Counted from the first letter of the stretch, positions 40,268-45,963 are shown. The stretch is DNA of 64,000 nucleotides from an uncultured Candidatus Saccharibacteria bacterium (GCA_964434935.1 CAYSWS010000002.1:8320-72319), one strand, 5' to 3'. The notes: generated by a model from the sequence alone, not told the origin. A program made the numbers and translations.

Positions 40268-40399
40268 CTATTCCCGTAACGGCAATTAAAATATGCATAT
40301 ATAGAAATTAAATGATTTCAGTTATGTATTTCCTTTGGTGACCGCAAATGCATATTATTACCACAACTTTTAATGTAACAATGAATATTTCATTGTAAT

Positions 40400-40427
40400 T
40401 TGTAAAAATTTATGTTTCGATTAGTAT
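40400..40427 (+). promoter_or_regulatory. Candidate sigma70-type promoter for nrdJ (TTGTAA-16-TAGTAT)
   Basis: The -35-like TTGTAA at 40400-40405 and -10-like TAGTAT at 40422-40427 sit in the 258-bp AT-rich leader, about 100 nt upstream of the nrdJ ATG. Confidence 0.3.
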
Positions 40428-40525
40428 TACACTGCCCTCATATATTTTCTACGGAAAATTGACCATAAGCTAGGCCTATAGGAAAGTAGGCTAGGTGGCT
40501 TTTTTACGTCAAAAAACACTATAAA

Positions 40526-43036
40526 ATGCAAGAGAATGTTAAAACAAAACCCAAAGACACATCTGTAAATGTAAGGTTGAGAAAGATACGTGACATGGAA
40601 AGAAAGAACGAGAACATCATTTTAAGTGAGAACTCCCGAGTTATTTTGGAAAAGAGATATTTAAGAAAAAGCGAATCTGGCGAAGCAGCGGAAACCATAC
40701 CGGAAATGTTTGAGAGGGTAGCTAGGGTAGTGGCTGAACCGGATACACCTTATACGGATATTACACGCACCAAGCAGGATTTTTACAACCTACTAACCAG
40801 TAAAAGATTTTTTCCCAACTCACCGACCTTTACCGGAGCCGGCACTCCCTTAGGTCAGTTAGCAGCCTGTTTTGTACTGCCTATAAATGATGACATGGGT
40901 AAAAATTCAGACGGTATATTTTCCACCTTAAAAGATGCCGCCTTGATACAACAAGTGGGAGGAGGAAATGGTTTTTCCTTTTCGGACCTGAGATCAAAAG
41001 GTGCGGTAGTAAAAAGCAGTAACGGTAAAGCTTCCGGGCCTGTGGGCTTTATGTCGGTTTACGATAAGGCTTTTGGTGAGATAGCCCAAGGCGGTGTGCG
41101 GCGAGGCGCCAACATGGCTGTATTAAGGGTGGACCATCCTGATATAAGAGAGTTCATAGCCTGTAAATCAACTGAGGGCGATATTGCTAATTTTAATATC
41201 TCGGTAGCCCTGACCGATTCATTTATGAAAGCCGTAGTGGACGACACTAATTATGAGCTTATTGACCCCGCGAGCAAAGAAGTAATAGAAACGCCCAGGG
41301 CCAGAGAGATCTTTGATCTTATCATCGAACATGCCTACAAGAACGGTGAGCCCGGTGCTTTATTTATAGACACAGCCAACAAAGAAAACCCTGTACCCCA
41401 ACTTTACGAACTCAAGGCTACCAACCCTTGCGGTGAGCAGTGGCTGGGGCCGTATGAGAACTGCTGTTTGGGTTCGATAAATTTGGCCGAACATCTTGAT
41501 GCCGATGGCAACCTAGATTGGGAGCTTTTTCAGGAGTCTATAGAGCTTTCTACTAAATTTTTGGATAACGTAGTGACCGCCAACAAGTATGTACCAACTG
41601 TGCCTCAGCTTAGGGAGGCAGCTTTGAATGCTCGCAGGATAGGTCTCGGCTTTATGGGTTTGGCTGATGCCATGTATGCTATGGGGATCAGATATGGCAG
41701 TCAAAAAGGTCAGGAGTTTGCTGCACAGATTACGGAATTTATGAGATACCATAGTATGCTGACCTCCATTCGTTTGGCCGAAGAAAGAGGTCCATTTAGA
41801 AAGATCTCCGGTAGCATCTACGATCCGGAAGATCTGCCGTGGGAGCCCCCGGTACCCCTTTCCCCCTACGAACACGACTTTAACCGGCCCGCCATTGATT
41901 GGAACAGGGTAGTTAATGGTATAAAACAGCACGGTATCAGGAACGCCGCACAAACAACCATTGCTCCCACAGGGACCATTTCCACGGTAGCTGGTGTAGA
42001 GGGTTACGGTTGCGAACCGGTCTTCGCTCTGGCTTACTTTAGGAATGTTTATCAGGCCGCGGGAGATGAGGAAGGTCTTACGCTGACCTATACCAGCCCG
42101 AGATTTATCGAGGCTTTGGATAAGGCCGGCATTGAAGGTGAACAAAGAGAAAGAATTATAGACCAGATCATAAAAAAAGGTTCCTGTCAGGATATTGACG
42201 AATTACCGCCCGGCCTCAAAGATACCTTTGTTGTCTCAGCGGACATAGCCCCGGAAGAACACATTTTAATGCAGGCTTCCATGCAGGCGTTTATAGATAA
42301 TTCTATCTCCAAGACCTGCAATTTTCCCTCTACAGCTACCAAGGAAGATGTGGCCGAGGTTTATATGAAGGGGTGGAAATTAGGATGCAAAGGCTTAACG
42401 GTCTATGTCACCGGTAGCAGGCAGGAAGTTGTCCTGGAAACAAAAGAAACTAAAAAAGCAAAGGCGGGGAAGGCTGAGGAGGAGTTCGAACAAAAAGTGT
42501 TCTCTCAACCTGTAGTAGAGGAGGTTAAAAGTGTGGAAATGGAAGAAGCCAGAGGGTACAAATTATCAGGCACTACCTATAAGATCAACACACCTCAAGG
42601 AAAGGCTTATGTGACCATAAATAGAAGTGATAGAGGAGAACCTCTGGAAGTATTCATCAATGTGGGCAAGGCCGGGTCCGACGTGGCCGCTTTGTCTGAA
42701 GCCATGGGCAGACTGGTTTCCGGCTGGCTGCGCGCTTCCAAAAATAGAGCCTACACTGTGAAGGATATAGTCGTGCAGTTGATCGGTATTGGCGGCGCCT
42801 CATCTATCGGGTTTGGCAAGAACAGAGTAAGCTCATTGCCCGACGCTCTAGCTAAAGTATTGGCGGAAGAATTTGATATCAGAGTGAGGGCTAACGGTTC
42901 GAACGTGGTCCACGAGGACGATAATGAAGTATCTTATTTTGCCCAAGCCGATATGTGTCCTGATTGCGGAAACTCAACTTTAGTGTTGGAAGAAGGCTGC
43001 GCTAAGTGCTACACCTGCGGTTTTAGTAAATGTTAA
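40526..43036 (+). CDS. nrdJ: Class II (adenosylcobalamin-dependent) ribonucleotide reductase, no ATP-cone
   Basis: N-terminal RNR region ([14 protein letters not shown]), [15 protein letters not shown] loop, thiyl-radical/active-site cysteines NPCGEQ...[10 protein letters not shown], and a C-terminal Cys4 ribbon CPDCGN...[12 protein letters not shown]. 836 aa. Confidence 0.9.
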
Positions 43037-43042
43037 GGGCAT

Positions 43043-45181
43043 ATGAATTTCAAGATCAAGAAGTTAAACGGAAATATTGAATTATTCCAAGCAGAGAAAA
43101 TATCAAATAGTGTTTTTTTGGCCGCCCAAAATGTAGGGGGAACAGATAAGGAACTGGCCAAAGAATTAAGCTGGCAGATAGTTGATATTTTAGAAAAGGA
43201 ATTCAAAGATAAGAGGTTCATTACTACCTTGGAGATAGGCAATATCGTGGAAAAAGTTCTCATCGAAAACGGACACGCCAGTACGGCCAAAGCCTTCATC
43301 CTCTACAGAGAGAATAAGAAGCACGCACATCAGGATAAGGATTCGCTGGGTATAAAAGATGATATAGGCCTGTCTTACAACACTTTATACATTCTCAAAC
43401 AGCGCTACCTGAAAAGAAAAGATACCGGGGAGATAGAGGAAACTCCGGCGGGTATGATACACCGCGTGGCAAAATTTCTCTCCGCTGTGGAAAAAGGTCA
43501 AAGAAAGCAAGCCAAATGGTACAAAGAGTTCAAAAACATCATGATGTCCTTTGATTTCTTACCCGGTTCCAGAACTTTAGCCAATGCCGGAAAGAACGCA
43601 CCTCAGCTGGCCAATTGTTTTGTCTGGCCGGTTGAGGATGACATAAACTCCATTTTTAATATCTTACACAAATCGACCTTGATCAAAAAGAATGGTGGCG
43701 GCTGCGGTTATAATTTTTCGCAGGTCAGGCCCGAAGGGGATATTGTGAACGGAATACCGGAACTGGCGGCCGGACCGGTCAAAATGATCGAAATGTTCAA
43801 TCTCATGACTTCACTTTTTAAGCAGGAAGGAAAATATGAAAGCGGTAACATGGCTATTTTAAATGCCGACCACCCCGACATTTTTAATTTTATCTCGGCT
43901 AAAAAGGATGATGGATATTTATCTAAGACGAATATTTCCGTGGGCGTCACCAACAAGTTCATGAAAGCTGCTTTAGAAGGTAAGGAGTGGGACCTTATTA
44001 ATCCCAGAACTAAAAAAGTCGTGAACACAGTCAATGCCAAATCTATTCTGGACCTCATGGCAAATTTAGCCTGGCAGACAGGCGACCCGGGCCTTATTAA
44101 TCTCTCGGCTATAAACAAAGGCACAGCCCTGGCAAATCCTCTCAAGAAGAAAAGAGGGGATATTATAACTACCAACCCTTGCGGAGAGGTCCCGCTATAT
44201 CCGTATGAGTCATGCAATTTGGGTTATGTTAATTTTGTTAATTTTGTTCGTGAGGGAAAATTTGATCTGGAAAGACTGGCTAAAGTCATCAGTGTGGCTG
44301 TGAGGTTAATGGACAATGTTATTGAGGCCTCATGGTTCCCAGTCGAAGAGGTGCAAAAGGCTGTGCATGAGCATAGAAGAATAGGTATTGGGGCAGTTGG
44401 CTGGGCAGAGGCTTTAGCTGAGCTGGAAATTTCCTATGATTCCCCGCAAGCCGTCAGGTTGGCTAAGAAAGTTACCAAAACCATGTACGAACACGCTTTT
44501 AACGCTTCCTGTTCTCTAGCTGAAGAAAAAGGGCCGTTCCCGCTGGTCAAGGATTCTATCTGGGCTGGAAAAAAGCACCAGCCCAGGAATGTAGCCCTGC
44601 TCACATTCCCTCCTAGCTCCAGCAACGCCGTCATCTGTGACACCACCTTTGGTATTGAGCCTTATTTTGCCTTGGCCTACGAGCAGAATGTATTAGAAGG
44701 TATGCGACTGAGGACCGTAGCCCCCGTCTTTATAAAAAAACTCAAACAGAGGGGTATTTATACGGACAAGTTGATACAAAAAGTAATTGATAATCATGGC
44801 AGTGCTCAGGGCATCAAAGAAATACCTCAGGATCTGCAAGTCATCTTCAAGGTAGCTCACGATATATCTTGGCGAGATCACATTAAAATGCAGGCTGCTT
44901 TCCAAACTTATACCGACAACGCAATTACCAAGACCATAAACATGCCCACAGAGACCACACCTAGTGAGATCAGGGAAGCCTTCATCTTAGCTTGGCAGCG
45001 GGGTTGTAAAGGTCTGACGGTATACAGGGATAGAACCAAATCAAATCAGGTGTTCGAATTTGGCAGTTCGCAGAGTTATAGGCCAGCCTTTACTATGTGC
45101 CCCAACTGCGATATACCGTTGGAAAAAGACAACAAATGCTATAAATGCGCCAGATGCGGTTTCAGCACTTGCGAACTGTAG
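43043..45181 (+). CDS. nrdJ: Class II ribonucleotide reductase paralog with N-terminal ATP-cone
   Basis: ATP-cone (residues 1-90: KIKKLNGNIELFQAEKISNSV...), KNGGGCGYNFSQVRPEG loop, TNPCGEVPLYPYESCNLGYVNF active site, and C-terminal CPNCD...CYKCARCGFSTC ribbon. 712 aa. Confidence 0.9.
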   Translation: MNFKIKKLNGNIELFQAEKISNSVFLAAQNVGGTDKELAKELSWQIVDILEKEFKDKRFITTLEIGNIVEKVLIENGHASTAKAFILYRENKKHAHQDKDSLGIKDDIGLSYNTLYILKQRYLKRKDTGEIEETPAGMIHRVAKFLSAVEKGQRKQAKWYKEFKNIMMSFDFLPGSRTLANAGKNAPQLANCFVWPVEDDINSIFNILHKSTLIKKNGGGCGYNFSQVRPEGDIVNGIPELAAGPVKMIEMFNLMTSLFKQEGKYESGNMAILNADHPDIFNFISAKKDDGYLSKTNISVGVTNKFMKAALEGKEWDLINPRTKKVVNTVNAKSILDLMANLAWQTGDPGLINLSAINKGTALANPLKKKRGDIITTNPCGEVPLYPYESCNLGYVNFVNFVREGKFDLERLAKVISVAVRLMDNVIEASWFPVEEVQKAVHEHRRIGIGAVGWAEALAELEISYDSPQAVRLAKKVTKTMYEHAFNASCSLAEEKGPFPLVKDSIWAGKKHQPRNVALLTFPPSSSNAVICDTTFGIEPYFALAYEQNVLEGMRLRTVAPVFIKKLKQRGIYTDKLIQKVIDNHGSAQGIKEIPQDLQVIFKVAHDISWRDHIKMQAAFQTYTDNAITKTINMPTETTPSEIREAFILAWQRGCKGLTVYRDRTKSNQVFEFGSSQSYRPAFTMCPNCDIPLEKDNKCYKCARCGFSTCEL

Positions 45182-45183
45182 CC

Positions 45184-45278
45184 AAATAGCTTATTTTCGA
45201 AGAAATACCTTATTTTCGAAGAAATACCTTATTTTCGAAGAAATAGCTAATTTTCGAAGAAATACCTAATTTTCTTTA
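45184..45278 (+). repeat. Tandem direct repeat: 5 copies of a 19-bp unit AAATACCTTATTTTCGAAG (4 near-perfect, 1 degenerate)
   Basis: Units occupy 45184-45202, 45203-45221, 45222-45240, 45241-45259 and 45260-45278. Each contains the palindrome TTCGAA. The array fills the whole nrdJ2-pduO intergenic space. Confidence 0.95.
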
Positions 45279-45283
45279 GTTAC

Positions 45284-45820
45284 ATGCCAATATATACAAA
45301 ACAGGGCGATAAGGGTGAAACCAACCTGAATAGTTCGACTCTTAAAAAAAGCCATCCCTTGTTGGACCTCATCGGTAACATCGATGAGCTGAATTCCTCA
45401 TTAGGGTTGCTGCATGCTATAAGAAATAAGAAAATAAGAGCTTTGGTCGAGGATTTGCAAAATGACCTATTTTCCTTAGGAGCCAAATTATCAGGTGCGA
45501 AAATAGATCTCAACTATTCTTCCAGGACAAATGATATCGAGCATGCTATCGATGAGTTGTCACTTTCTCTGCCCAAACTGTCCAACTTTATAATTCCCGG
45601 AGGCTCAAAGTTTGCTGCTCAGCTGCAGCTTTCACGGGCTGTGGCCAGAAGAACGGAAAGGAGTGCCGTCGCCTTGATGGAAAAAGGAGTTCTTAAAGAC
45701 AGTGAGGGAGAGGGCCTGATCACGTATCTGAACCGTTTATCTGATTTATTGTTTGTCATGGCGCGATATGTTAATTTTAAACTTGGTATAAAAGACACTA
45801 TTTGGCCTAAAAAAAGATGA
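45284..45820 (+). CDS. ATP:cob(I)alamin adenosyltransferase, PduO type
   Basis: N-terminal signature IYTKQGDKGETNLNSSTLKKSHPLLDLIGNIDELNSSLG matches the YTKTGDxGxT...GxIDEL motif of the PduO/MMAB family. 178 aa. Confidence 0.85.
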   Translation: MPIYTKQGDKGETNLNSSTLKKSHPLLDLIGNIDELNSSLGLLHAIRNKKIRALVEDLQNDLFSLGAKLSGAKIDLNYSSRTNDIEHAIDELSLSLPKLSNFIIPGGSKFAAQLQLSRAVARRTERSAVALMEKGVLKDSEGEGLITYLNRLSDLLFVMARYVNFKLGIKDTIWPKKR

Positions 45821-45963
45821 ACAAATTTTATTACTTATTATTAATGTCTCTGGTTGTTATAGGCATTGTCGTGGCAGGTGTACTAGCAAAAAGGGCTGAC
45901 CAAACGGATAGATTTTTTGAATATCAGAAATCCCAAAGTGGAAAAAACTATGAGGGAAACTAA
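45817..45963 (+). CDS. Possible 48-aa single-TM micro-protein (MNKFYYLLLMSLVVIGIVVAGVLAKRADQTDRFFEYQKSQSGKNYEGN)
   Basis: The ATG overlaps the pduO TGA (ATGA coupling) and is followed by one hydrophobic helix. It is below the 60-aa cutoff of the ORF track and has no homology support. Confidence 0.3.
   Translation: MNKFYYLLLMSLVVIGIVVAGVLAKRADQTDRFFEYQKSQSGKNYEGN

What the first reader, a model, noticed from the sequence alone, without database searches (positions are those of the whole stretch)
40526..45820. Tandem duplicated class II (B12-dependent) RNR genes, only one carrying an ATP-cone, co-located with a PduO-type cobalamin adenosyltransferase
Two full-length nrdJ-like ORFs sit head-to-tail (836 aa and 712 aa). 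Both retain the GGG loop, both active-site cysteine motifs (NPCGE and E-x-C-x-L-G) and a C-terminal Cys4 ribbon, so neither looks like a pseudogene or an NrdJa/NrdJb split. Only the second carries an N-terminal ATP-cone for allosteric on/off control. They are followed directly by an ATP:cob(I)alamin adenosyltransferase that makes the AdoCbl cofactor. If the lineage is reduced-genome as inferred, it should lack de novo corrin synthesis, so the pairing implies a self-contained salvage-and-use module for dNTP supply. Two differently regulated NrdJ enzymes could serve different dNTP/cofactor regimes or form heteromers.
Basis: partly seen in the sequence, partly recalled or inferred. Interest (0 to 1): 0.6.

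Follow-up and report, generated by a model that had tools for sequence, protein, structure and literature searches.

The report
Two unlike B12 ribonucleotide reductases, one operon
A small-genome (Patescibacteria/CPR) bacterium encodes two intact but only 34% identical vitamin-B12-dependent ribonucleotide reductases next to the enzyme that activates B12. Having several such reductases is a published pattern, but the second one belongs to an uncharacterised subtype with a rebuilt substrate pocket.

Summary
ORFs 40526-43036 (836 aa), 43043-45181 (712 aa) and 45284-45820 (178 aa) are two full-length class II RNRs (NrdJ) and a PduO-type adenosyltransferase.

"Tandem duplicated" is wrong. The two NrdJs share 34% identity and belong to separate, well-conserved clades.
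- NrdJ1 is the standard CPR NrdJ. It has the P-N-S-P diphosphate-type phosphate loop and an IscU-like/TSCPD domain plus a six-Cys tail. In relatives it stands alone in the block ftsZ-nrdJ-pduO-ileS.
- NrdJ2 is an accessory gene inserted between nrdJ1 and pduO. It is present in one near relative and absent in another.

The NrdJ2 clade carries an ATP-cone and an unusual P-G-S/T-R phosphate loop. An invariant Tyr replaces the near-universal loop-2 Arg (E. coli Arg298). In 30 of 30 informative genomes a different class II RNR lies directly upstream of it.

Multi-NrdJ genomes with mixed phosphate specificity are already published (Schell et al. 2021), as are the tail domains. No regulation by an ATP-cone has been observed in a class II enzyme.

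Best reading: two independent, complementary reductases sharing one cofactor-activation gene. A heteromer is a weaker rival. Interest is moderate.

The parts
40268..40525 (+). ftsZ-nrdJ1 intergenic region (258 nt), the presumed promoter and leader of the nrdJ1-nrdJ2-pduO unit. It holds a perfect 8+8 inverted repeat ACAATGAA-TAT-TTCATTGT (40378-40396) and a terminator-like hairpin plus T-run (about 40466-40510) 20 nt before the start codon.
   Evidence: Sequence. Both elements are conserved in the relatives L056 and L057. No Rfam family matches, including the cobalamin riboswitch. The whole-leader fold is not unusually stable (z = -0.29). Function is not established.
40526..43036 (+). nrdJ1: 836-aa dimeric-type class II (AdoCbl) ribonucleotide reductase with no ATP-cone.
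- Catalytic residues: C115, N300, C302, E304, C313.
- Apical phosphate loop: P97-N-S-P100 (diphosphate type).
- Loop 2: Q188-GGV-R192-RGANM.
   Evidence: invariant columns. This is the core CPR NrdJ, 65-82% identical to orthologs in WWE3, Nomurabacteria, Saccharimonadia and Patescibacteria records. It stands alone before pduO or ileS in L052-L055 and L057.
42578..43033 (+). C-terminal extension of NrdJ1. It comprises a TSCPD / IscU-like domain (aa 685-781; the eponymous Cys is Leu here, 'SSLPD') and a six-Cys zinc-finger/redox tail (C811, C814, C825, C828, C831, C836).
   Evidence: Pfam PF12637; invariant Cys. The architecture is described for class II RNRs in PMC5704485 and PMC9669993.
43043..45181 (+). 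nrdJ2: 712-aa class II RNR of a distinct clade, starting 6 nt after the nrdJ1 stop.
- Catalytic residues: C192, N378, C380, E382, C391.
- Apical loop: P174-G-S-R177 (family P-G-S/T-R).
- Loop 2: K260-Q-E-G-K-Y265-E-S-G-N-M, with Tyr at the Arg298(Ec)/R207(Tm) position.
- Distal phosphate loop: F522-P-P-S-S526.
- Six-Cys tail: C686, C689, C699, C702, C705, C710. No IscU-like domain.
   Evidence: AF2 model with mean pLDDT 74. The best structural matches are T. maritima NrdJ entries (1xjn; target-normalised TM 0.79).
43052..43321 (+). ATP-cone domain of NrdJ2 (aa 4-93).
   Evidence: Pfam PF03477, E = 2.4e-18. Invariant K7, G10, F15, K19 and R89 in the family. There is a weak direct match to the L. 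blandensis NrdB cone 5olk. The AF2 model shows a beta-hairpin plus four helices. The canonical K-R-D-G reads K-L-N-G here.
45184..45274 (.). 19-nt tandem repeat (AAATACCTTATTTTCGAAG, 4.8 copies) filling the nrdJ2-pduO spacer.
   Evidence: It is unique to this site. It is absent from L056, where the spacer is about 23 nt. Significance unknown.
45284..45820 (+). pduO-type ATP:cob(I)alamin adenosyltransferase (178 aa) with the N-terminal ATP motif YTKQGDKGET.
   Evidence: PDB hits to ST2180, YvqK, L. reuteri PduO and human MMAB. A PduO gene lies within 1.5 kb downstream of the ORF2-type gene in 24 of 30 informative loci.
45817..45963 (+). 48-aa small hydrophobic ORF overlapping the pduO stop by 4 nt (MNKFYYLLLMSLVVIGIVVAGVLAKRADQTDRFFEYQKSQSGKNYEGN).
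   Evidence: It is called and conserved (58-67% identity) at the same position in L056 and L057. It may belong to the same transcription unit. Function unknown.

Best explanation
The locus is a three-gene dNTP-supply unit set in the conserved CPR block dcw cluster-ftsA-ftsZ-nrdJ-pduO-ileS. PduO adenosylates salvaged cob(I)alamin to AdoCbl, the radical cofactor both reductases need.

NrdJ1 is the lineage's core enzyme. It is a dimeric-type NrdJ with the P-N-S-P apical loop of nucleoside-diphosphate reducers, a canonical loop 2, and an IscU-like domain plus six-Cys tail for re-reduction.

NrdJ2 is not a duplicate. It is an accessory NrdJ from a separate clade, inserted between nrdJ1 and pduO. 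It keeps the full radical machinery and its own six-Cys tail. All three substrate-contact elements are rebuilt:
- the apical loop is P-G-S/T-R;
- the distal loop is PPSS;
- loop 2 has Tyr in place of the Arg that clamps the beta-phosphate and base.
It also carries an ATP-cone.

The most likely division of labour is that the two act as separate homo-oligomeric enzymes on different substrate pools. NrdJ1 would act on NDPs. NrdJ2 would most probably act on NTPs, or show another altered phosphate or base preference, possibly gated by ATP/dATP through the cone.

Shown here: gene integrity, family membership, purifying selection, clade separation, conserved synteny, and presence/absence of nrdJ2.
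Inferred: co-transcription, substrate phosphorylation level, cone function, and B12 salvage.
For: - Family tests are passed by both RNRs and by PduO. Both carry the class II finger loop NPCGE (PMC9669993).
- The two share 34% identity, while each is 65-82% identical to its own orthologs. In a rough NJ tree they fall in different clades. ORF2 groups with P-G-S-R proteobacterial NrdJs and near P-G-G-R enzymes; ORF1 groups with P-N-S-P enzymes.
- Schell et al. (PMC8365446) showed experimentally that the apical loop sets NDP (P-N-S-P) versus NTP (P-A-G-R) specificity. They also found that 760 of 1108 genomes with more than one NrdJ mix the two types. ORF1 is P-N-S-P and ORF2 has the NTP-type Arg at position 4.
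- ORF1-type is sufficient alone in L052-L055 and L057. The same trio as in the window occurs in L056.
- ORF1 and ORF2 have diverged equally from L056 (79% and 77% aa) with pN/pS of about 0.15. GC content matches the genome.
- ORF2-type has another class II RNR directly upstream in 28 of 30 loci by the automatic count. The other two have a NrdJm-like RNR there.
- The partners are of at least four unrelated types (clusters c6, c4, c1 and NrdJm-like). This fits functional complementarity better than a specific complex.
- The 6-nt spacing and the absence of a predicted terminator between the genes fit one operon.
Against: - P-G-S/T-R is not one of the motifs whose specificity was measured. The nearest test, a P-A-S-R point mutant, gave reduced GTP activity and only traces of GDP activity (PMC8365446). 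The NTP assignment is therefore an extrapolation.
- In some arrays the partner of ORF2-type already has the NTP motif P-A-G-R (L013, L015, L016, L026). NDP/NTP complementarity therefore cannot be the whole reason for pairing.
- Loss of the Arg298-equivalent abolishes activity in E. coli and is lethal in yeast (PMC4728125). ORF2's activity on ordinary substrates is therefore not guaranteed.
- ATP-cone regulation has not been demonstrated in any class II RNR (PMC9669993).
- The rest of the genome was not available, so other RNRs, NDK, B12 uptake and corrin synthesis could not be checked outside the 64 kb.
Confidence: 0.55

Rival explanations
1. NrdJ1 and NrdJ2 assemble into a hetero-dimer or hetero-oligomer. 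The cone-bearing NrdJ2 would supply regulation or a second kind of active site, and the IscU-like/Cys tail of NrdJ1 would serve both subunits.
For: - The spacing is tight (6 nt) and the gene order is fixed, with ORF2-type always last.
- ORF2-type was never without a neighbouring RNR in 30 of 30 close loci.
- Natural single-ORF fusions of two complete NrdJ units with one tail exist: P0243 and P0244.
- Some array members in L021 and L033 have no Cys tail at all.
- Cross-subunit electron transfer by the Cys-rich domain was shown in S. nassauensis NrdJ (PMC5704485).
Against: - NrdJ1-type works alone in many genomes, including an 82%-identical relative.
- NrdJ2 has its own complete six-Cys tail.
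- Its partners belong to at least four unrelated NrdJ types, including a monomeric-like one. That is hard to reconcile with one co-evolved interface.
- More distant clade members (about 50% identity, CPR and Proteobacteria) have no partner within 10 kb.
- The fused proteins are only 35-38% identical to either window protein.
Confidence: 0.2
2. The two are redundant isozymes or condition-specific backups with the same substrates. For example, they might be used at different cobalamin, redox or growth states, with the cone-bearing copy throttled by dATP.
For: - Both have complete catalytic sets and tails.
- Schell et al. found that 31% of multi-NrdJ genomes have same-type enzymes (PMC8365446).
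- nrdJ2 is dispensable in a close relative.
Against: - A single apparent operon gives little scope for differential expression.
- The substrate-contact loops differ systematically and are invariant within each clade. This argues for different substrate handling rather than mere redundancy.
Confidence: 0.15
3. NrdJ2 is a specialised reductase for a narrower or non-standard substrate set, or a mainly regulatory protein. It would be unable to act as the cell's sole RNR.
For: - An invariant Tyr replaces the Arg that is essential in E. coli and yeast class I enzymes. Tyr is found in all 12 ORF2-clade sequences and Arg in 79 of 81 others in the tree alignment. All 42 loci copies carry the same YESGNM loop 2. 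The Arg's role is described in PMC4728125.
- The apical and distal loops are novel.
- In close CPR loci it is always accompanied by another RNR.
Against: - All radical-chemistry residues and the re-reduction tail are invariant.
- A conserved Lys/Arg sits one residue before the Tyr and an Arg sits in the apical loop. These could take over phosphate binding.
- Clade members in other lineages appear locally solitary.
Confidence: 0.1

Closest known systems
Thermotoga maritima NrdJ (dimeric class II RNR, NDP-specific; PDB 1XJE/1XJN/3O0O)
   Same: It is the best sequence and structure match for both ORFs. Shared features are the ten-stranded barrel, the five catalytic residues, the NPCGE finger loop and the dimeric-type architecture. 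ORF1 also shares the P-N-S-P apical loop and the Q-x3-R-R-G-A loop 2.
   Different: ORF1 adds an IscU-like/TSCPD domain and a six-Cys tail. ORF2 adds an ATP-cone, has P-G-S-R instead of P-N-S-P, PPSS instead of APTG in the distal loop, and Tyr instead of R207 in loop 2. ORF2 is about 32-33% identical to the T. maritima enzyme.
Genomes with several NrdJs of differing phosphate specificity (Schell et al. 2021, JBC, PMC8365446)
   Same: This work gives the same general phenomenon and the same proposed rationale. More than one nrdJ occurs in 1108 GTDB genomes and 69% combine NDP-type and NTP-type apical loops. ORF1 carries the canonical NDP motif.
   Different: ORF2's P-G-S/T-R motif is not among the motifs that paper lists or tested (P-N-S-P, P-A/S/G-G-R, P-S-M-R, P-Q-G-S-P). 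The paper does not describe operon structure, CPR arrays of 2-4 paralogs, or the linkage to an adenosyltransferase. I found no paper that does.
Stackebrandtia nassauensis NrdJd with cysteine-rich C-terminal domain (Loderer et al. 2017, PMC5704485) and the IscU-like + zinc-finger tails of class II RNRs (Burnim et al. 2022, PMC9669993)
   Same: The six-Cys pattern C-x2-C-x9-C-x2-C-x2-C-x5-C (a Zn site plus a redox pair) matches both ORFs almost exactly. ORF1 also has the preceding folded domain (Pfam TSCPD).
   Different: ORF2 has only the short zinc-finger tail. In ORF1 the TSCPD-motif cysteine is replaced (SSLPD) and is not conserved in its family, so an Fe-S role is unlikely. The physiological reductant is unknown in all cases.
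ATP-cone-bearing class II RNRs such as Thermoplasma acidophilum NrdJ
   Same: They share an N-terminal ATP-cone on a dimeric-type NrdJ. About 11% of class II sequences have one (PMC9669993).
   Different: The T. acidophilum enzyme is an NDP reducer (PMC8365446, Table 1) and showed no activity regulation (PMC9669993). The cone-bearing sequences nearest to ORF2's clade in the tree mostly have P-N-S-P loops and Arg in loop 2. ORF2's clade combines the cone with P-G-S/T-R and Tyr.
PduO-type ATP:cob(I)alamin adenosyltransferases (L. reuteri PduO 3CI1, human MMAB 2IDX, B. subtilis YvqK 1RTY)
   Same: ORF3 is a full-length match with E = 1e-20 to 1e-28 and the N-terminal T-K-x-G-D-x-G-x-T ATP motif. 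It passes the equivalog-domain model.
   Different: It is a stand-alone 178-aa protein linked to nrdJ rather than to a diol or ethanolamine operon or to methylmalonyl-CoA mutase. In L058 a CobA/BtuR-type enzyme occupies the same position.

Membership tests
Class II (AdoCbl-dependent) ribonucleotide reductase, NrdJ - ORF1 | Scores above the curated cutoff of the NrdJ equivalog model and below that of the class I alpha model | tested here: met
   TIGR02504 NrdJ_Z gives 642.9 bits (cutoff 399.95). TIGR02506 NrdE_NrdA gives 328.5 bits (cutoff 341.05).
Class II (AdoCbl-dependent) ribonucleotide reductase, NrdJ - ORF2 | Scores above the curated cutoff of the NrdJ equivalog model and below that of the class I alpha model | tested here: met
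   TIGR02504 gives 580.5 bits (cutoff 399.95). TIGR02506 gives 320.8 bits (cutoff 341.05).
Class II RNR - both ORFs | Five catalytic residues: redox Cys pair, thiyl Cys, Asn and Glu | tested here: met
   ORF1 has C115, N300, C302, E304 and C313. ORF2 has C192, N378, C380, E382 and C391. They align to T. maritima C134, N320, C322, E324 and C333 and are invariant in 25-sequence family alignments.
Class II RNR - both ORFs | Class-specific finger-loop motif N-P-C-x-E (class I has N-L-C-x-E) | tested here: met
   Both read T-N-P-C-G-E. The motif statistics come from PMC9669993.
Class II RNR - both ORFs | Activity depends on adenosylcobalamin and needs no NrdB or NrdG partner | not testable with these tools
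   Only indirect support. No nrdB or nrdG is in the window, and an adenosyltransferase is genetically linked across many genomes. Both have T-V-Y instead of the class I Y-Y radical-transfer pair (sequence; class I Y730/Y731 from my own knowledge).
Dimeric-type NrdJ with allosteric specificity site - ORF2 | Loop 2 with the conserved Gln and the Arg equivalent to E. coli Arg298 / T. maritima R207 | tested here: not met
   Gln261 is present, but the Arg position is an invariant Tyr265. Tyr is found in 12 of 12 clade members and Arg in 79 of 81 other NrdJs in the tree alignment. All 42 loci copies carry the same YESGNM loop 2. ORF1 meets the feature (Q188, R192).
NDP-reducing NrdJ (Schell et al. 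2021) | Apical phosphate loop P-N-S-P | tested here: met
   ORF1 has P97-N-S-P100, invariant in its family. ORF2 does not (P-G-S-R).
NTP-reducing NrdJ (Schell et al. 2021) | Apical phosphate loop P-[A/S/G]-G-R, or the tested variants P-S-M-R and P-Q-G-S-P | tested here: inconclusive
   ORF2 has P174-G-S-R177 and its family has P-G-T/S-R. The Arg at position 4 fits. Position 3 is Ser/Thr instead of Gly, a combination not assayed in a natural enzyme.
ATP-cone domain (overall-activity site) - ORF2 | Match to the Pfam ATP-cone model with conserved nucleotide-binding residues | tested here: met
   PF03477 gives 66.9 bits (cutoff 25.8). K7, G10, F15, K19 and R89 are invariant. The Arg of the usual K-R-D-G is Leu here. 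Whether it binds ATP/dATP or regulates activity was not testable.
Class II C-terminal zinc-finger / redox tail (Loderer et al. 2017) | Six cysteines, C-x2-C-x9-10-C-x2-C-x2-C-x4-5-C, at the extreme C-terminus | tested here: met
   Both ORFs have it, and all six Cys are invariant in each family. The pattern is compared with Cys-920, 923, 933, 936, 939 and 945 of S. nassauensis (PMC5704485).
PduO-type ATP:cob(I)alamin adenosyltransferase - ORF3 | Match to TIGR00636 / PF01923 over the full length, with the N-terminal ATP-binding motif | tested here: met
   TIGR00636 gives 161.8 bits (cutoff 108.45) and PF01923 gives 161.4 bits. PDB relatives have E down to 3e-28. The motif is YTKQGDKGET.
Split NrdJa/NrdJb class II RNR | Catalytic barrel and C-terminal redox domain encoded on two separate polypeptides | tested here: not met
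   Each ORF holds a complete barrel plus its own Cys tail.

The most novel reading that the evidence does not exclude
ORF2-type NrdJs (ATP-cone, P-G-S/T-R apical loop, PPSS distal loop, Tyr for the loop-2 Arg) are a specialised subclass that does not serve as a cell's only RNR. On this reading, the CPR arrays of 2-4 diverged nrdJ paralogs, always ending in this gene and an adenosyltransferase, divide the substrates among paralogs by phosphate level or by base. Alternatively they build hetero-oligomers, as the natural NrdJ-NrdJ fusions hint. Either case would partly replace the usual 'one enzyme, four substrates, allosteric switching' design.
Probability: 0.12. Interest if true: 0.75.

Novelty: new variant of a known kind. 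Interest (0 to 1): 0.4.

Why it matters
Two questions are openly stated in the RNR literature:
- Why do some organisms keep several NrdJs and both NDP- and NTP-reducing forms (PMC8365446)?
- What does an ATP-cone do on a class II enzyme that needs no partner subunit (PMC9669993)?

This locus and its many CPR relatives offer a compact natural test case. It has one canonical NDP-type NrdJ and one cone-bearing NrdJ whose substrate pocket lacks the arginine considered essential elsewhere. Both are co-encoded with the cofactor-activating enzyme, and close relatives exist with and without the second gene.

For CPR biology, the locus indicates that dNTP supply depends on acquired cobalamin. It also shows that this dependence sits next to the cell-division genes. 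If the enzymes turn out to be ordinary and redundant, the locus is just another multi-NrdJ genome.

Tried and rejected
- **Recent tandem duplication:** rejected. The two share 34% identity, fall in different clades and have different tails and N-termini.
- **Pseudogene, or two halves collapsing into one gene:** rejected. Both are complete, their families are highly conserved and pN/pS is about 0.15.
- **NrdJa/b split:** rejected.
- **Class I alpha without beta:** rejected. The finger loop is NPCGE, the NrdJ_Z model is passed and no nrdB is present.
- **Cobalamin riboswitch or any Rfam element upstream:** none.
- **NrdR gene in the window:** none. The leader palindrome does not fit the 16-bp NrdR box that I recall, and it occurs once only, so no claim is made.
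- **Foreign origin of nrdJ2 by composition:** GC and GC3 match the neighbouring genes.
- **Polarising gain versus loss of nrdJ2:** failed. The window, L056 and L057 are about equidistant.
- **Metagenome scan for ORF1-type loci:** the tool returned an error and the cap was consumed. I substituted six exact-protein look-ups.
- **Organism name:** cluster look-up gave no names. Many GTDB record titles for these loci ('uncultured Gammaproteobacteria') are evidently unreliable, so the lineage is inferred from the named Woesebacteria, WWE3, Nomurabacteria and Patescibacteria hits and from the synteny.
- **Heteromer modelling:** not possible with the single-chain predictor.
- **Phylogeny:** only a rough midpoint-rooted NJ tree on 564 columns. 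It is good enough to show that the two genes are not sisters, but not to place the ORF2 clade relative to the NDP/NTP split.


Full report
**1. What is there**

The + strand carries three ORFs exactly as reported:
- ORF1, 40526-43036, 836 aa.
- ORF2, 43043-45181, 712 aa.
- ORF3, 45284-45820, 178 aa.

Domain content (Pfam):
- ORF1 has the RNR all-alpha and barrel domains plus a C-terminal TSCPD domain.
- ORF2 has an N-terminal ATP-cone plus the same two RNR domains.
- ORF3 is a cobalamin adenosyltransferase.

Curated NCBIfam models:
- Both RNRs pass the AdoCbl-dependent reductase equivalog TIGR02504 (643 and 580 bits, cutoff 400).
- Both fall just below the class I alpha model.
- ORF3 passes TIGR00636 PduO_Nterm.

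The best solved relative of both RNRs is the dimeric Thermotoga maritima NrdJ. An AlphaFold2 model of ORF2 (mean pLDDT 74) also matches T. maritima NrdJ best (target-normalised TM 0.79). It does not match the monomeric Lactobacillus type among the top hits.

Both proteins keep the five catalytic residues:
- ORF1: C115, N300, C302, E304, C313.
- ORF2: C192, N378, C380, E382, C391.

Both also carry the class II finger-loop signature NPCGE (PMC9669993).

**2. Setting**

Pfam scans of the other long ORFs and the gene calls on the identical contig L001 show an ordinary CPR core region:
- mraZ-mraW-PBP, then murA-ftsW-murG-ftsQ-ftsA-ftsZ directly upstream.
- ileS-rodA/ftsW-LytR_C-L21 downstream.
- Also uvrABC, lexA, enolase and PPDK.

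The 64 kb holds no nrdR, other RNR class, btu gene or corrin-synthesis gene. It has no cobalamin riboswitch or any other Rfam element apart from tRNAs.

Named database relatives are Patescibacteria: WWE3, Nomurabacteria, Saccharimonadia and Woesebacteria. The exact organism could not be named.

**3. Not a duplication**

ORF1 and ORF2 share 34% identity. Each has hundreds of orthologs at 65-82% identity. Family alignments show 70-76% mean column identity with all functional residues invariant.

In a rough NJ tree of 93 NrdJs the two sit in different clades:
- ORF1 groups with enzymes whose apical phosphate loop is P-N-S-P.
- ORF2 groups with proteobacterial NrdJs (Roseibium and Kangiella records, 45-51% identity, no cone) that share its peculiar loops. 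This clade lies near P-G-G-R enzymes.

Against the relative L056, which has the same trio, both genes show pN of 0.12-0.14 with saturated pS of 0.83-0.86. Their protein divergence is the same (79% and 77%), and their GC content equals that of the neighbours. Both are therefore under purifying selection and have been co-inherited for a long time.

**4. Comparative genomics**

ORF1-type is the core CPR enzyme. In five loci it stands alone in the block ftsZ-nrdJ-(pduO)-ileS:
- L052, L054, L055 and L057 have pduO directly after nrdJ.
- L053 has nrdJ followed directly by ileS.
- L057 is the closest known relative (82% identity).

L056 (78% identity) has nrdJ1-nrdJ2-pduO, as the window does. So nrdJ2 is a gene-sized presence/absence difference exactly between nrdJ1 and pduO. 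The three lineages are about equidistant, so gain and loss cannot be told apart.

I then started from ORF2-type genes in GTDB species representatives:
- 28 of 30 close loci with enough flank have another nrdJ immediately upstream.
- The other two have a NrdJm-like, cone-bearing class II RNR there.
- 24 of 30 have pduO within 1.5 kb downstream.

The partners are heterogeneous:
- a Woesebacteria P-N-S-P type (cluster c6);
- the ORF1 type (c4);
- a P-A-G-R type (c1), sometimes with a third paralog (c5).
- Four-gene arrays occur in L021 (WWE3) and L033.

In L058 a CobA/BtuR-type adenosyltransferase replaces PduO after a nrdJ array. This non-orthologous replacement strengthens the functional link between the reductases and AdoCbl formation.

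**5. What distinguishes ORF2**

Schell et al. showed by grafting experiments that the apical phosphate loop sets substrate phosphorylation level. P-N-S-P means NDP and P-A-G-R means NTP. They reported 1108 genomes with more than one NrdJ, 69% of them mixing types (PMC8365446).

ORF1 has P-N-S-P. ORF2 has P-G-S-R and its family has P-G-T/S-R. The Arg is that of the NTP type, but Ser/Thr sits where Gly makes room for the gamma-phosphate. This combination is not among the motifs they list. It was sampled only as a crippled point mutant.

Two further contact elements are changed:
- The distal loop reads F-P-P-S-S instead of I-A-P-T-G.
- Loop 2 reads K-Q-E-G-K-Y-E-S-G-N-M.

By alignment, Tyr265 takes the place of T. 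maritima R207 and E. coli Arg298. [quoted passage not shown] The yeast equivalent is lethal (PMC4728125).

In my tree alignment all 12 ORF2-clade sequences have Tyr at this position, while 79 of 81 other NrdJs have Arg. All 42 ORF2-type copies from the loci carry the same YESGNM loop 2.

So ORF2 is catalytically equipped but has a rebuilt substrate clamp. A conserved Lys/Arg one residue earlier, and the apical Arg, may compensate.

The ATP-cone is a solid Pfam match with conserved residues. However, no class II cone has yet been shown to regulate activity (PMC9669993).

**6. Mechanism proposed**

PduO makes AdoCbl from acquired cobalamin. NrdJ1 and NrdJ2 use it as independent enzymes with complementary substrate handling. 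NrdJ1 would act on NDPs. NrdJ2 would most likely act on NTPs or show another altered preference, perhaps under ATP/dATP control. All three genes are probably transcribed together, given the 6-nt gap and the absence of a predicted terminator. I give this reading 0.55.

The heteromer idea (0.2) gains from three observations:
- the invariable pairing;
- the tail-less paralogs in L021 and L033;
- two natural fusions of two NrdJ units, P0243 and P0244.

It loses from three others:
- NrdJ1's independence in other genomes;
- NrdJ2's own complete tail;
- the diversity of partners.

Plain redundancy (0.15) and a specialised or non-autonomous NrdJ2 (0.1) remain open.

**7. Novelty**

The following are all published:
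- genomes with multiple NrdJs;
- the NDP/NTP rationale for them;
- the zinc-finger and IscU-like tails;
- cone-bearing class II enzymes.

I could not find the following in the literature:
- the CPR-wide ftsZ-nrdJ(array)-adenosyltransferase arrangement;
- the rule that the cone-bearing clade always comes last and is always paired;
- that clade's P-G-S/T-R and Arg-to-Tyr substitutions.

The locus is therefore a real, well-formed example of a known kind that contains a biochemically uncharacterised variant. Interest is moderate at 0.4.

**8. Limits**

- Substrate specificity, cone function, oligomeric state, co-transcription and B12 salvage are inferences.
- The remainder of the genome was not examined.
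- The tree is approximate.
- The locus samples are capped: 50 GTDB loci and a handful of look-ups.
- One planned metagenome scan failed.

Noticed in passing
L058:8001-12056 (protein P0243, 1351 aa); also P0244 (1600 aa): These are single ORFs containing two complete NrdJ catalytic units, each with its own Cys...NPCGE...Cys set, followed by one IscU-like/TSCPD + six-Cys tail. The L058 context is ftsA-ftsZ ... dCMP deaminase - nrdR - nrdJ (720 aa) - fused double nrdJ - CobA/BtuR-type adenosyltransferase ... two ndk genes. I am not aware of a description of such NrdJ-NrdJ fusions.
   Followed up: partly
L021:3909-12127 and L033:2280-12025: Four diverged nrdJ paralogs lie in tandem (a WWE3 MAG and a Patescibacteria MAG). 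Several end right after the barrel with no Cys tail and have odd apical loops (S-G-T-P, V-T-R-S, P-G-G-S). Three-gene arrays occur in L013, L015, L026 and L041.
   Followed up: partly
L023:7709-9973 and L024:6628-9547: In these two loci the gene upstream of the ORF2-type nrdJ is a 754/804-aa NrdJm-like RNR with its own ATP-cone and a C-terminal ACxGGAC motif. L024 also encodes NrdR directly upstream, so some CPR do have NrdR next to the RNR cluster.
   Followed up: no
window:45184-45274: A 19-nt tandem repeat (AAATACCTTATTTTCGAAG, 4.8 copies, 94% matches) fills the nrdJ2-pduO spacer. It occurs nowhere else in the window. It is absent from the relative L056, where the spacer is about 23 nt. A short-read assembly of the same sequence (L001) breaks inside it.
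   Followed up: partly
window:45817-45963: A 48-aa ORF with one hydrophobic helix overlaps the pduO stop codon by 4 nt (ATGA). It is conserved in position and sequence (58-67% identity) in L056 and L057, so it is probably a real small membrane protein of the same unit.
   Followed up: partly
window:40378-40396 and 40466-40510: The nrdJ1 leader has a perfect 8+8 inverted repeat (ACAATGAA TAT TTCATTGT) and, 20 nt before the start codon, a hairpin followed by a T-run that looks like an intrinsic terminator or attenuator. Both are conserved in L056 and L057. There is no Rfam match, and the palindrome is unique in the window.
   Followed up: partly
proteins P0365, P0324, P0379 (50%-identity cluster representatives related to ORF2): These RNR-like sequences have ATP-cones but lack the catalytic cysteines (for example DGFVLP and TIPTGE, or SSTSIP). 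They may be RNR-derived pseudo-enzymes.
   Followed up: no
L002, L005-L007, L009, L013-L015 and others (record titles): Many GTDB representative MAGs carrying these CPR-type loci are titled 'uncultured Gammaproteobacteria', 'Pseudomonadales' or 'Saccharibacteria' in their TPA records. Their proteins are nevertheless 70% or more identical to Woesebacteria ones, so the titles look like mislabels.
   Followed up: no
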